Assembly (NCBI RefSeq): GCF_009914755.1
Contig: NC_060935.1
Reading direction: 5' to 3' (one strand)
DNA: 64,000 nucleotides
Source: the human T2T-CHM13v2.0 reference genome, Homo sapiens
Position 1 is the first letter of the stretch; each line of letters starts with the position of its first letter. The notes below the pieces were generated by a model. It worked only from the letters and a program-made list of their open reading frames with translations, had not been told where the DNA came from and did no database searches. Below are positions 32,700 to 34,300 of this stretch, piece after piece. A program made the translations under genes and the position numbers.

Positions 32700-34300
32700 G
32701 ACCCAGCCCCCCACCCGCCGCCGGCACTCAGGGCTTCCCCAAGGGCGCCCGGGGCGGAGCCGCTTCAAGTTGCCACCAGACAGCAACGGGGTCACCCTCC
32801 ATTTGCGTAGTGCTTTGAGTATCGTTCTCGTGGTTGGAGGTCTCCAAGCCCGGCCCGGGGCCAGAGTCCGGGCGAGGTACCGTGGGGGGAAGGGCTGGGG
32901 GTGTCGGTCGCGGGCTAAGAGCTGCCCAGGTTTCATCCCCAGGCCCCGGCCCCGCCCTCCAGTCCCCTCAGGCGCCCTTCGCGAGCATCTTCCTCCCGCG
33001 CGCGAAGGTGGGGGGGCTGGGGCGCCGGCGCGGGCGAAGGGGCCGGGGTCGCGGCTGGTGCGTTGCCGGGGGCTGCGATTCGTCCGCCCAGGCGGAGCGC
33101 TGGGGTTTGCCGGGCGGTGCGGCGAGGAGGGGAGGGGTCCGCGCGGGGGCGGAGCCGCCGGGGATTGGCCGGGAGGGCGCGGGGCGGGGCGCGCGGGGTC
33201 GGGGGCGCGGGGGCCGCAGCGCGCGGGCCGGGCAGATGTTTGGGTTCCGCCGCCGGGGTCCGAGCGGATCCGCGCGACCCGCTGCCACCGCGGGGGCCAG
33301 AGCGGGAGCAGGAGCGGGGCCGGAGCAGGCGCCGGCCGGCGGGATGGGGCGTTCCGGGGCGGCGGGTGCGGGGCGCTGAGCGGCGGCCCCGGCACACCCG
33401 GGCGCGATGCGCCGCTCCAGCACGGACGAGTCCACGTACCGGCGCAGCCCCTCTCCGGAGGGCAAGGAGCCGGACTTCGCGCGCGGCGGCCCCTTCCGGC
33501 GCTACAGCAGCCTATACGGGCGCGCGGGCGGCGGGGACGCCGGGGGCGCCTTCTTCGGCCTGCACGCGAACCCCGGCCCCAAGGCGGCCCAGGCGCGCTA
33601 CACGTCGCCCAAGGGCAACAAGTACGTGGTTTTCTACCTGGACCTCTCCTTCATCTTCCTCCTAGAACTGAAGCGCTGCGGCATGGCGCGCGCCTGCCTC
33701 CAGGCCGTCAAGTACCTCATGTTCGCCTTCAACCTGCTCTTCTGGGTGAGTCCGGGGGCCGGGGTGGGGGCCCGGGAAAGACCCGGGGTCCCTCCCGCGG
33801 CGGGTCGCGGGGTCTGGGGAGTCGGAGTCGCTGCCCCGGCCAGGCGTTGGGTGCGGTTGTGGGGATGGTCCCGGGAGGACCCAAGACCGCTGCTCCGGCT
33901 AGGAGCCTGGACTGGGCGGGTGGGGAAGGTTTGCACCATCGCGGGGTCCGCCCCCTGCACTCAGAGCGGCTGCCCCACGCCCTGGTCCCCTCTCCTCTCC
34001 TCTCCTCTCCTCACTTGATGAGACGGGACACGTTGCACACGTGCGCGCCGGACAGGGCCACCCGGGCACTGCGCCTCTCCTAGGGTCGGGGTTCGAGTCC
34101 GGGTCGTGGCCAGTTTTGCGCGGGGCCCCGGTGCCTCCTCTGCGCCCGCTCCCTCCTCGGTGCAGCCGTTATCCTTGCCTCGGCCCCGCCCCTCCAGGCA
34201 GGCGACCTGTCGGGCCCAGGGACTCACTTCCGAGGGTTTGAGCCGGCTGCCGCCAAGGTCCCCCAGTCGCCGGGAGGCGCTGCGGAAGGGAATCCTGGAC
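32700..34300. promoter_or_regulatory. Internal TSPAN4 CpG island with promoter motifs
   Basis: GC boxes 33146-33154 and 33181-33190 flank an inverted CCAAT at 33164-33168; very high CpG density. Confidence 0.8.
33407..33745 (+). CDS. TSPAN4: Putative alternative first coding exon of TSPAN4 with a 92-aa N-terminal extension (long isoform ~330 aa)
   Basis: ATG 33407 is open and in frame with canonical ATG 33683. 87 of 92 codons end in G/C. It shares the donor at 33745/33746. Confidence 0.65.

What the first reader, a model, noticed from the sequence alone, without database searches (positions are those of the whole stretch)
33407..33745. Hidden N-terminally extended TSPAN4 isoform (+92 aa) encoded in 'intronic' CpG-island DNA
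Seen: ATG 33407 (G at -3) opens 92 codons that run without a stop into the canonical ATG 33683: MRRSSTDESTYRRSPSPEGKEPDFARGGPFRRYSSLYGRAGGGDAGGAFFGLHANPGPKAAQARYTSPKGNKYVVFYLDLSFIFLLELKRCG. 87 of 92 codons end in G/C, and A/T sits almost only at codon positions 1-2. Two of the five exceptions (cta gaa) are forced by the splice acceptor. Y, F, K, D, E and N are well represented, unlike the G/A/R/P-dominated spurious CpG-island ORFs around it. A GC-CCAAT-GC promoter lies ~240 bp upstream. Established: TSPAN4 drives migrasome formation, and tetraspanins normally have very short cytoplasmic N-termini. Inference: an internal promoter makes a ~330-aa TSPAN4 with a signalling tail carrying basophilic kinase sites (RRSS, RRSPSP, RRYSS), several Tyr and an SP site. 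It may already exist as a predicted isoform, but I do not recall it being characterised.
Basis: partly seen in the sequence, partly recalled or inferred. Interest (0 to 1): 0.9.

Follow-up and report, generated by a model that had tools for sequence, protein, structure and literature searches.

The report
Annotated, ancient long TSPAN4 isoform
The 92 extra codons in front of the usual TSPAN4 start are real protein-coding sequence, conserved from sharks to humans and already present in RefSeq, but no paper found here has studied what the added tail does.

Summary
ATG 33407 opens 92 stop-free codons that run into the canonical ATG at 33683. G+C by codon position is 57, 51 and 87 of 92.

The isoform is not hidden. 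RefSeq carries the curated transcript NM_001439693.1, with first exon 33234-33745 and coding sequence from 33407. Spliced, it gives an intact 330-aa protein.

It is genuinely coding:
- The third-position G+C excess is reached by 0 of 16455 non-coding GC-rich windows in these 64 kb.
- The 92 aa recur in TSPAN4 proteins of mammals, birds, reptiles, frogs, ray-finned fishes and sharks (67% identity in skate and catshark).
- The extension is about as conserved as the tetraspanin core (frog-catshark 78% vs 74%).
- Human TSPAN9 has the same arrangement at chr12:3207416-3207685, including the nested splice acceptor. That form is also predicted across vertebrates.

The extension has an acidic, serine-rich head with an invariant RSPS, a variable linker, and an invariant hydrophobic block (KYVVFYLDLSFIFLLELKRC) just before TM1.

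Function is unknown. My searches found no paper on it. Verdict: already annotated, uncharacterised, moderately interesting.

The parts
33112..33189 (+). Core promoter elements of the internal CpG-island promoter: GGGCGG at 33112, 33147 and 33182, and an inverted CCAAT (ATTGG) at 33164-33168
   Evidence: They lie at -122, -87, -52 and -70 relative to the RefSeq transcript start 33234. CpG observed/expected is 1.10 and G+C is 0.84 for 33000-33406. Promoter activity itself was not testable here.
33234..33406 (+). 5'UTR of NM_001439693.1. It holds two upstream ATGs in the frame of the main ORF: 33236 (47 codons) and 33344 (11 codons, context gggATGg). Both end at TGA 33377-33379.
   Evidence: Whether they dampen translation from 33407 is inference.
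33407..33682 (+). The 92-codon N-terminal extension of TSPAN4 (coding)
   Evidence: Translation is and the RefSeq coding sequence. The codon periodicity is reached by 0 of 16455 non-coding windows. There are 92 vertebrate protein hits with E <= 0.01. dN/dS against the human TSPAN9 paralogue is 0.43.
33407..33469 (+). Block 1 (codons 1-21): an acidic, serine-rich head with invariant RSPS
   Evidence: Alignment of 22 sequences. RSPS is present in 88/91 and 62/68 proteins. dN/dS against TSPAN9 is 0.33.
33470..33598 (+). Variable linker (codons 22-64) holding FRRYSSLYG and FFGLH.NPGPK. It has in-frame length changes between lineages and is Gly/Ala-rich in mammals.
   Evidence: dN/dS against TSPAN9 is 0.65 for codons 22-63.
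33599..33682 (+). Block 3 (codons 65-92): YTSPKGNKYVVFYLDLSFIFLLELKRCG. This is the invariant aromatic and hydrophobic stretch just before the canonical N-terminus and TM1.
   Evidence: YLDLSF is invariant, and the rest of the block nearly so, from sharks to human and in TSPAN9. YLDLSF is present in 89/91 and 65/68 proteins. The Kyte-Doolittle 19-residue mean is 1.31, against 1.95-2.85 for the four TM segments.
33630..33665 (+). Pyrimidine-rich tract and acceptor AG (33664-33665) used by the canonical transcripts. It lies inside the coding sequence of the long isoform, so it has two roles.
   Evidence: The canonical exon starts at 33666. TSPAN9 has the same ctcctag|aa. In block 3 only 6 of 20 identical residues use different codons in TSPAN4 and TSPAN9, against 6 of 9 in block 1.
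33683..33745 (+). Canonical start codon and first 21 codons of TSPAN4, shared by both isoforms. The donor GT is at 33746-33747.

Best explanation
This is a genuine, already annotated alternative first exon of TSPAN4.

How the long form arises:
- Transcription starts at an internal CpG-island promoter (RefSeq start 33234), inside the intron that precedes the canonical start-codon exon.
- That transcript has no upstream donor, so the canonical 3' splice site at 33664/33665 is not used and is read as codons.
- Translation from ATG 33407 therefore adds 92 residues in front of the usual Met, giving a 330-aa tetraspanin.

How old it is:
- The arrangement predates the TSPAN4/TSPAN9 duplication.
- It has been kept under protein-level purifying selection in jawed vertebrates, about as strongly as the tetraspanin core.

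Inferred, not shown:
- Residues 1 to about 70 form a cytoplasmic, disordered, phosphorylation-prone tail: an acidic serine cluster, an invariant RSPS, and RRxS sites in TSPAN4.
- The invariant aromatic and hydrophobic block before the juxtamembrane cysteines associates with the cytosolic face of the membrane or with the TM bundle.
- The long form would then differ from the 238-aa form in trafficking, partner binding or microdomain behaviour.
- The two in-frame upstream ATGs and the strong canonical ATG downstream suggest that this mRNA may yield both long and short protein.
For: Annotation:
- NM_001439693.1 (BestRefSeq) has first exon 33234-33745 and coding sequence from 33407.
- The spliced coding sequence is 993 nt, 330 aa, with no internal stop.

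Coding signal:
- GC3 is 87/92, against 57 and 51 at positions 1 and 2.
- 0 of 16455 non-coding GC-rich windows match this.
- The canonical TSPAN4 coding sequence has a similar GC profile of 0.53/0.42/0.90.

Orthologues:
- 92 proteins score E <= 0.01 among 94 scored candidates.
- Examples: gibbon 97%, koala 69%, chicken 73%, frog 75%, gar 65%, zebrafish 57%, skate and catshark 67% identity over 99% of the 92 aa.
- Length differences are all in frame, and 80 of 159 stored proteins begin MRRSST.

Constraint equal to the core:
- Human-catshark: extension 66%, core 70%.
- Frog-catshark: extension 78%, core 74%.

Paralogue:
- The human genome search gives chr12:3207416-3207685 inside TSPAN9 (E 6.7e-14, 49% identity, no stops). 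It has the same nested acceptor and donor.
- 140 TSPAN9/TSPAN4 proteins match that extension. TSPAN9 hits reach 97-99% identity in mammals, 79% in chimaera and 72-74% in sharks.
- dN/dS between human TSPAN4 and TSPAN9 is 0.43 for the extension: block 1 0.33, block 3 0.28, canonical part of the same exon 0.30.

The long form is needed in some lineages:
- In 7 of 134 proteins carrying the block-3 motif, the canonical Met is Leu or Val. Six are named sources (sawfish, three rays, two gar entries); the seventh, P0149, carries no species name (names).

Promoter:
- ATTGG at -70 and GC boxes at -52, -87 and -122 relative to the RefSeq start.
Against: - No transcript-start, ribosome-footprint or peptide data could be examined. 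Translation in human cells rests on annotation and conservation.
- Two in-frame upstream ATGs, one in a strong context (gggATGg, 33344), precede the start and end only 27 nt before it. This could lower output of the long form.
- Most orthologue proteins are automatic gene models ('isoform X'). Their existence as proteins is not shown.
- Mammalian TSPAN4 extensions evolve faster than the core (human-koala 75% vs 88%). Armadillo (P0068) lacks the middle of the extension. The snake model P0092 jumps from the linker straight to LKRC and so lacks the invariant block.
- The functional reading has no direct support.
- The hydrophobic block is neither a clear TM segment (KD mean 1.31) nor a clear amphipathic helix (hydrophobic moment 0.12-0.20 at 100 degrees).
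Confidence: 0.85

Rival explanations
1. The transcript mainly supplies canonical protein. The internal promoter would exist chiefly to drive the ordinary 238-aa TSPAN4 in some tissues. Upstream ORFs and leaky scanning would carry ribosomes past 33407 to the strong canonical ATG at 33683. In humans the long protein would then be a minor product.
For: - Two upstream ATGs lie in the annotated 5'UTR. The second is in the strong context gggATGg, and both stop 27 nt before 33407.
- ATG 33407 has c at +4.
- The mammalian extension diverges faster than the core.
- A 2019 catalogue of validated human tetraspanin isoforms lists only TSPAN4 isoforms 1 and 2 (PMC6773723, passages seen).
Against: - Protein-level conservation of all 92 residues equals that of the core in non-mammals.
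- The start-codon position is conserved.
- The canonical Met is lost in gar and rays.
- dN/dS is 0.28-0.33 in blocks 1 and 3.
- None of these is expected if the region were only a 5'UTR.
Confidence: 0.2
2. The invariant hydrophobic block is a fifth membrane-spanning segment. The long isoform would then be a five-pass protein, with the first ~70 residues outside the cell or in the lumen.
For: - A 16-residue hydrophobic run (YVVFYLDLSFIFLLEL) is flanked by K on one side and KR on the other.
- A short basic loop leads to TM1, which is topologically compatible with the known orientation of TM1 (inference).
- It is the only hydrophobicity peak outside the four TM segments.
Against: - The Kyte-Doolittle mean is 1.31, against 1.95-2.85 for TM1-4.
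- Asp and Glu inside the run are invariant.
- Residues 1-70 are hydrophilic (mean KD -1.11). The extension has no N-glycosylation sequon and its only Cys is the juxtamembrane one.
- The extension has 15 K+R and serine-rich motifs typical of cytosolic tails.
Confidence: 0.1
3. The open frame is a chance ORF in a CpG island, and its conservation reflects promoter and splice-site DNA rather than protein.
For: - Long ORFs are common here: 13 of at least 50 aa within 32800-34200, one of 612 aa.
- Block 3 overlaps the pyrimidine tract and acceptor, and shows reduced synonymous change between the paralogues (6 of 20 identical residues differ in codon).
Against: - 0 of 16455 non-coding windows match the codon periodicity.
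- Amino-acid identity to sharks is 66-67% with in-frame indels only.
- Synonymous differences sit on conserved residues (17 of 44 identical residues differ in codon).
- dN/dS is 0.43.
- RefSeq curates it as coding.
Confidence: 0.02

Closest known systems
RefSeq NM_001439693.1 (human TSPAN4 transcript with first exon chr11:901234-901745 in T2T-CHM13)
   Same: It is the same object: identical exon, identical start codon at 33407, and a 330-aa product.
   Different: Nothing differs in sequence. I found no paper that names this accession (0 papers) or that holds any of four peptide strings from the TSPAN4 and TSPAN9 extensions (0 papers).
Long isoform of the paralogue TSPAN9 (human chr12:3207416-3207685; predicted 'tetraspanin-9 isoform X1', about 330 aa, in many vertebrates)
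   Same: - A 92-codon extension ends at the canonical Met.
- It has the same RSPS head and the same KYVVFYLDLSF(I/V)FLLE(L/F)K(R/K)C block.
- It has the same nested acceptor ctcctag|aa.
   Different: - 49% identity overall.
- It lacks the RR.S and FRRYSS motifs.
- It is far more conserved among mammals (97-99%) than the TSPAN4 extension.
- I could not see whether RefSeq annotates it in human. Only the chr11 transcript table was available.
TSPAN10 (oculospanin)
   Same: A tetraspanin with a long cytoplasmic N-terminus. [quoted passage not shown]
   Different: No sequence relationship was found. The human-genome search with the 92 aa hit only TSPAN4, TSPAN9 and two chance-level places.
PRPH2 (peripherin-2) C-terminal amphipathic helix
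   Same: A tetraspanin with a membrane-proximal cytoplasmic segment that partitions into the cytosolic leaflet and affects curvature, as stated in the introduction of PMC6773723. It is a possible analogy for block 3.
   Different: It lies at the other end of the protein and is unrelated in sequence. Block 3 has a low helical hydrophobic moment (0.12-0.20), so the analogy is weak.

Membership tests
Protein-coding exon under purifying selection | The open frame is kept in orthologues, with in-frame length changes only | tested here: met
   92 vertebrate proteins carry the extension. The 22-sequence alignment shows only whole-codon gaps at the protein level. Orthologous DNA itself could not be read.
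Protein-coding exon under purifying selection | Amino-acid conservation with synonymous change (dN/dS below 1) | tested here: met
   Human TSPAN4 against TSPAN9 gives dN/dS 0.43 (blocks 1 and 3: 0.33 and 0.28; canonical part 0.30). 17 of 44 identical residues use different codons. The sample is small and near saturation.
Protein-coding exon under purifying selection | Three-base periodicity of composition | tested here: met
   GC1/2/3 is 57/51/87 of 92. 0 of 16455 non-coding windows reach this.
Protein-coding exon under purifying selection | Evidence of translation (footprints, peptides) | not testable with these tools
   No reads or proteomic tables were available, and supplements of papers were closed.
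Tetraspanin family (Pfam PF00335) | A full tetraspanin domain follows the extension | tested here: met
   The gibbon orthologue P0001 matches PF00335 at E 8e-57, residues 101-321. The human spliced product is 330 aa, and its core is 237/238 identical to gibbon.
Alternative-promoter first exon | Its own transcript start inside an intron of the main transcript, with promoter-type sequence upstream | tested here: met
   RefSeq start 33234 lies in the intron 30679-33665 of NM_003271.5. The region is a CpG island (observed/expected 1.10) with ATTGG at -70 and GC boxes. This is met by annotation and sequence; promoter activity was not tested.
Transmembrane helix (a fifth span) | Hydrophobicity comparable to the accepted TM segments of the same protein | tested here: not met
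   The KD 19-residue mean is 1.31, against 1.95, 2.35, 2.85 and 2.30 for TM1-4. Asp and Glu within the run are invariant.
Amphipathic membrane-binding helix | High helical hydrophobic moment | tested here: not met
   The moment at 100 degrees is 0.12-0.20 across block 3. At 170 degrees (strand-like) it is 0.21-0.34. Without a structure model this is only indicative.
Phospho-regulated cytoplasmic tail (basophilic kinase, CK2-type or 14-3-3-type motifs) | Conserved consensus motifs | tested here: inconclusive
   RSPS is in 88/91 and 62/68 proteins. S..[DE] is in 87/91 and 59/68. RR.S is in 80/91 but only 1/68. RR[YC]S is in 49/91 and 1/68. The assignment of motifs to kinases is recalled knowledge. 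Phosphorylation was not tested.

The most novel reading that the evidence does not exclude
TSPAN4 and TSPAN9 may form an unrecognised subclass of 'long-N-terminus' tetraspanins.

- The ancestral protein would be the ~330-aa form. In gar and rays the short form's Met is even lost.
- The invariant aromatic block before TM1 would insert into the cytosolic leaflet or dock on the TM bundle.
- The serine-rich head would act as a phospho-switch.
- The long form would then tune membrane curvature, microdomain assembly and migrasome formation differently from the 238-aa protein.
- The one migrasome construct description I read took the mouse TSPAN4 cDNA from the NCBI CCDS database without naming an isoform.
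Probability: 0.25. Interest if true: 0.7.

Novelty: already known. Interest (0 to 1): 0.4.

Why it matters
TSPAN4 is the standard marker and driver used in migrasome work.

- The one construct description I read took the mouse TSPAN4 cDNA from the NCBI CCDS database and named no isoform (bioRxiv 10.1101/2024.12.12.627632, passages).
- A 2025 ten-year review of the migrasome field contains none of the words isoform, N-terminal, N-terminus or splice (PMC12408842, term search).
- A 2019 survey states that only TSPAN10 has a large N-terminus (PMC6773723).

Against that background, a 92-residue extension as conserved as the tetraspanin core, shared with TSPAN9 and obligatory in some fishes, is an under-used fact. 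It gives a concrete, testable handle: isoform-specific tagging or knockout. This could show how these two tetraspanins are regulated from the cytoplasmic side. As a sequence feature it is not new, because curators and gene predictors already have it.

Tried and rejected
1. ORF length as evidence was rejected. 13 ORFs of at least 50 aa overlap 32800-34200 in several frames, one of 612 aa.

2. Domain and structure look-ups gave nothing for the extension:
- Pfam: 0 families for the TSPAN4 and TSPAN9 extensions at E <= 1.
- PDB sequences: only two chance-level rows (E 0.69, and E 1.1 to CD81 over the TM1 part).
- ESM Atlas: no usable hit and no model.

I fell back on hydropathy and hydrophobic-moment calculations. 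These argue against both a clean TM helix and a clean amphipathic helix but settle nothing.

4. Other tetraspanin loci. The six-frame search of the human genome with the 92 aa gave 4 matches: TSPAN4 itself, TSPAN9, one inside FBLN2 (E 0.225) and one at chr12:116.4 Mb (E 1.41). I take the last two as chance. None lay at CD151, CD53 or any other tetraspanin. Closed regions of the reference are not shown, so absence is not proven.

5. Relatives outside jawed vertebrates. None appeared among named proteins. The tool needs shared 5-residue words, and 88 and 131 candidates of unnamed source were left out. This is therefore a weak negative. I ran no further search on it.

6. Literature:
- (TSPAN4 + isoform + N-terminal): 26 papers, 20 listed, none on this isoform by title or abstract.
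- four peptide strings, 0 papers.
- TSPAN9 + isoform + N-terminal, 29 papers, 15 listed, none on a long isoform by title or abstract.
- TSPAN4 + alternative promoter, 3 papers. PMC8260223 mentions an 'uncharacterized' alternative-first-exon event of Tspan4 in macrophages without saying which exon (one passage). PMC12324277 and PMC12536144 mention TSPAN4 only in passing.
- the accession, 0 papers.
- tetraspanin + N-terminal extension, 35 papers, none relevant among the 20 listed.
- One search was badly designed. With min_terms 2 it did not require TSPAN4, and none of the 20 listed papers held it. It carries no weight.
- tspan4a, 19 papers.
- PMC11097525 was checked for Tspan9 phosphosites and has only a glycoprotein mention.
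- PMC4433240 says C. elegans TSP-21 (301 aa) is the orthologue of TSPAN4, TSPAN9 and CD53 (passages). I could not fetch that protein to compare N-termini.
- Supplementary tables (phosphoproteomes, Ribo-seq, N-terminomics) were closed and I did not ask for them. They may well hold peptides or footprints from residues 1-92.

7. The second-strongest periodicity in the window (about 31812-32100, 0.245) was inspected. Its ORFs are Gly/Ala/Arg/Pro-rich with no coding look, and I dropped it.
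Full report
**What is there.** At 33407 an ATG (g at -3, c at +4) opens 92 codons that run without a stop into the canonical TSPAN4 ATG at 33683 and on to the donor GT at 33746. 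The nearest upstream in-frame stop is TGA 33377-33379. G+C is 57, 51 and 87 of 92 at codon positions 1, 2 and 3. The five codons ending in A/T are numbers 16, 36, 75, 86 and 87. The canonical transcripts splice into this region at AG 33664-33665, and their exon starts at 33666. That AG therefore lies across codons 86 and 87 (CTA GAA). The pyrimidine tract in front of it is read as VVFYLDLSFIFLL in the long form.

**It is already annotated.** The chromosome table lists 15 TSPAN4 transcripts. One of them, NM_001439693.1 (source BestRefSeq, i.e. curated), has first exon chr11:901234-901745 (window 33234-33745) and coding sequence from 901407 (window 33407). It then uses the same six downstream coding exons as the main transcript. 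Spliced in a script, the coding sequence is 993 nt and 330 aa with no internal stop. The isoform is therefore not hidden. The transcript start lies in the intron (30679-33665) of the main transcript NM_003271.5.

**Is it more than a chance ORF?** ORF length says nothing here. 13 ORFs of at least 50 aa overlap 32800-34200 on both strands, including one of 612 aa. Three other things do speak.
- The codon periodicity is extreme. GC3 minus the mean of GC1 and GC2 is 0.359. Among 16455 non-coding 276-nt windows with G+C >= 0.65 in these 64 kb, none reaches it; the maximum is 0.245. The periodicity holds in each third of the extension and resembles the canonical TSPAN4 coding sequence (0.53/0.42/0.90).
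- The amino-acid make-up is unlike the surrounding ORFs. G+A+R+P is 41% and Y+F+K+D+E+N is 30%, against 48-70% and 4-11% in six neighbouring ORFs.
- Conservation is deep, as described next.

**Conservation.** I searched named public proteins with the unspliced open frame from 33407 (203 aa, by reference), scoring only residues 1-92. This gave 92 proteins at E <= 0.01 among 94 scored candidates. A further 88 candidates of unnamed source were left out by the tool.
- The hits are TSPAN4 proteins or fragments that begin with the extension.
- Examples: gibbon 97% identity, vole 87%, sea lion 86%, koala 69%, chicken and turtle 73%, frog 75%, paddlefish 70%, gar 65%, zebrafish 57%, skate and catshark 67%. 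Coverage is 99-100% of the 92 residues.
- In a 22-sequence alignment the differences in length are whole residues confined to the middle.
- 80 of the 159 stored proteins start MRRSST.
- The extension is about as conserved as the tetraspanin core. Human-catshark is 66% against 70%, frog-catshark 78% against 74%, and frog-paddlefish 83% against 82%.
- In mammals the extension lags the core, for example human-koala 75% against 88%.

**The paralogue.** A six-frame search of the human genome with the 92 aa gave four matches: TSPAN4 itself, chr12:3207416-3207685 (E 6.7e-14, 49% identity, residues 1-91, no stops), and two chance-level places (E 0.225 in FBLN2; E 1.41).
- The chr12 match lies inside TSPAN9.
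- It has the same anatomy: an ATG, 92 codons, the canonical Met, the same ctcctag|aa nested acceptor, and a donor after the same Trp codon.
- Its GC by codon position is 0.49/0.50/0.80.
- A protein search with it gave 140 hits at E <= 0.01 (120 listed, 131 unnamed candidates left out). 'Tetraspanin-9 isoform X1' proteins of about 330 aa appear at 97-99% identity in mammals, 79% in a chimaera and 72-74% in sharks.
- The extension therefore predates the TSPAN4/TSPAN9 duplication. Because both copies with the extension occur in cartilaginous and bony vertebrates, it dates at least to the common ancestor of jawed vertebrates.
- Between the two human paralogues dN/dS is 0.43 over 82 aligned codons: block 1 0.33, middle 0.65, block 3 0.28. 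The canonical 21 codons of the same exon give 0.30. These are small, near-saturated samples.

**Anatomy of the extension.**
- Block 1 (residues 1-21) is M-R-R-S-S-T-D-E-S-T-Y-(R/H)-R-S-P-S-(L/P)-(D/E)-(S/G)-K-(D/E). RSPS is present in 88 of 91 proteins of the TSPAN4 set and 62 of 68 of the TSPAN9 set. An S..[DE] pattern is in 87/91 and 59/68. The N-terminal RR.S is in 80/91 but 1/68, and sharks have NRS.
- The middle holds FRRYSS(L/M)YG (RR[YC]S in 49/91 and 1/68) and FFG(L/F)H.NPGPK. It varies in length and is Gly/Ala-rich in mammals.
- Block 3 (residues 65-92), YTSPKGNKYVVFYLDLSFIFLLELKRC, is invariant or nearly so from sharks to human and in TSPAN9. YLDLSF is in 89/91 and 65/68 proteins.
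- Block 3 overlaps the pyrimidine tract and acceptor used by the short transcripts. Consistent with two constraints on the same bases, only 6 of 20 identical residues there use different codons in TSPAN4 and TSPAN9, against 6 of 9 in block 1. CTA GAA is identical in both.

**A pointer that the long form is made.** In 7 of the 134 stored proteins that carry the block-3 motif, the residue at the canonical Met position is Leu or Val. Six are named sources (sawfish, three rays, two gar entries); the seventh, P0149, carries no species name (names). In those species the short protein cannot start at the usual codon.

**Promoter and 5'UTR.**
- The region 33000-33406 has G+C 0.84 and CpG observed/expected 1.10.
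- Relative to the RefSeq start 33234, ATTGG lies at -70 and GGGCGG at -52, -87 and -122, with no TATA motif.
- The annotated 5'UTR holds two ATGs in the frame of the main ORF: 33236 (3 nt from the annotated start, 47 codons) and 33344 (gggATGg, 11 codons). Both end at TGA 33377, 27 nt before ATG 33407.
- It is inference that these, together with the strong canonical ATG (ggcATGg), let the mRNA give both long and short protein, or reduce the long one.

**What it might do.** The evidence is thin.
- No Pfam family matches the extension, nor any solved structure or Atlas cluster.
- Residues 1-70 are hydrophilic (mean KD -1.11). The 92-residue extension has 9 Ser, 3 Thr, 6 Tyr, 15 Lys+Arg, 8 Asp+Glu, no N-glycosylation sequon and only the juxtamembrane Cys. 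This looks like a cytoplasmic, disordered, phosphorylatable tail.
- Block 3 gives a KD 19-residue peak of 1.31, against 1.95-2.85 for the four TM segments. Its helical hydrophobic moment is low (0.12-0.20), and its strand-type moment somewhat higher (0.21-0.34).
- Block 3 is therefore neither a clear extra TM helix nor a clear amphipathic helix.
- My best guess is a membrane-associated or bundle-docking segment next to the juxtamembrane cysteines. A fifth span remains possible at about 10%.

**Literature.**
- A 2019 survey of human tetraspanin RefSeq isoforms lists only TSPAN4 isoforms 1 and 2 and TSPAN9 isoform 1. [quoted passage not shown]
- No paper in the searched library holds the transcript accession or any of four peptide strings from the two extensions.
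- A 2025 review of ten years of migrasome work contains none of the words isoform, N-terminal, N-terminus or splice (PMC12408842, term search).
- A macrophage migrasome preprint took mouse TSPAN4 from CCDS (10.1101/2024.12.12.627632, passages).
- PMC8260223 lists an 'uncharacterized' alternative-first-exon event of Tspan4 in inflamed macrophages without saying which exon (one passage).
- The library lacks most subscription-journal papers, and supplements were closed. 'Not characterised' therefore means not found.

**Verdict.** It is already in curated annotation and in gene models of many vertebrates, so as a sequence feature it is known. Three things may be under-appreciated. The extension is as constrained as the tetraspanin core. 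It is shared with TSPAN9. Its most conserved part is a hydrophobic block that doubles as the splice acceptor region of the short form. Function is open.

Noticed in passing
L002 1501-1836 (human chr12:3207416-3207751, inside TSPAN9): TSPAN9 has the same 92-codon upstream extension, the same nested acceptor (ctcctag|aa) and the same invariant KYVVFYLDLSF block. Long TSPAN9 isoforms are predicted across vertebrates at 97-99% identity in mammals. Whether RefSeq annotates this coding sequence in human could not be seen here.
   Followed up: yes
P0049-P0054 and P0149 (sawfish, rays, gar and one unnamed source); position equivalent to window 33683-33685: The canonical start Met of TSPAN4 is Leu or Val in 7 of 134 extension-bearing proteins. 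This implies the long form, or another start, is obligatory in those species.
   Followed up: partly
window 33236-33379 and 33344-33379: Two upstream ATGs in the annotated 5'UTR of the long transcript lie in the same frame as the main ORF and end at TGA 33377. The second has a strong context, gggATGg. TSPAN9 also has an upstream ATG (L002 1461) out of frame with its start.
   Followed up: partly
window 26991-27046 and 30579-30678: The Gnomon model XM_054369771.1 predicts yet another TSPAN4 N-terminus. It starts at 26991 and reads exon 30579-30678 as coding while skipping the exon with the canonical ATG.
   Followed up: no
window 31812-32100: This is the second-strongest codon-like G+C periodicity among non-coding windows (0.245, GC3 0.84). 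The ORFs there are Gly/Ala/Arg/Pro-rich and look non-coding.
   Followed up: partly
window 32245-34083, + strand: A 612-aa open frame crosses the whole CpG island in another frame, with an Arg/Gly/Ala/Pro-rich translation. It shows that ORF length is no evidence of coding here.
   Followed up: no
window 33470-33598 (codons 22-64): The mammalian TSPAN4 linker has gained Gly/Ala-rich insertions and lost Tyr and Ser residues relative to the near-identical bird, turtle, lizard and frog sequences. Armadillo lacks the FRRYSS part. This may reflect GC-biased drift in this subtelomeric, very GC-rich region, which is inference.
   Followed up: no
window 32741-32800: RefSeq lists a 'silencer' element (silent region_3047) about 430 bp upstream of the internal transcript start.
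   Followed up: no
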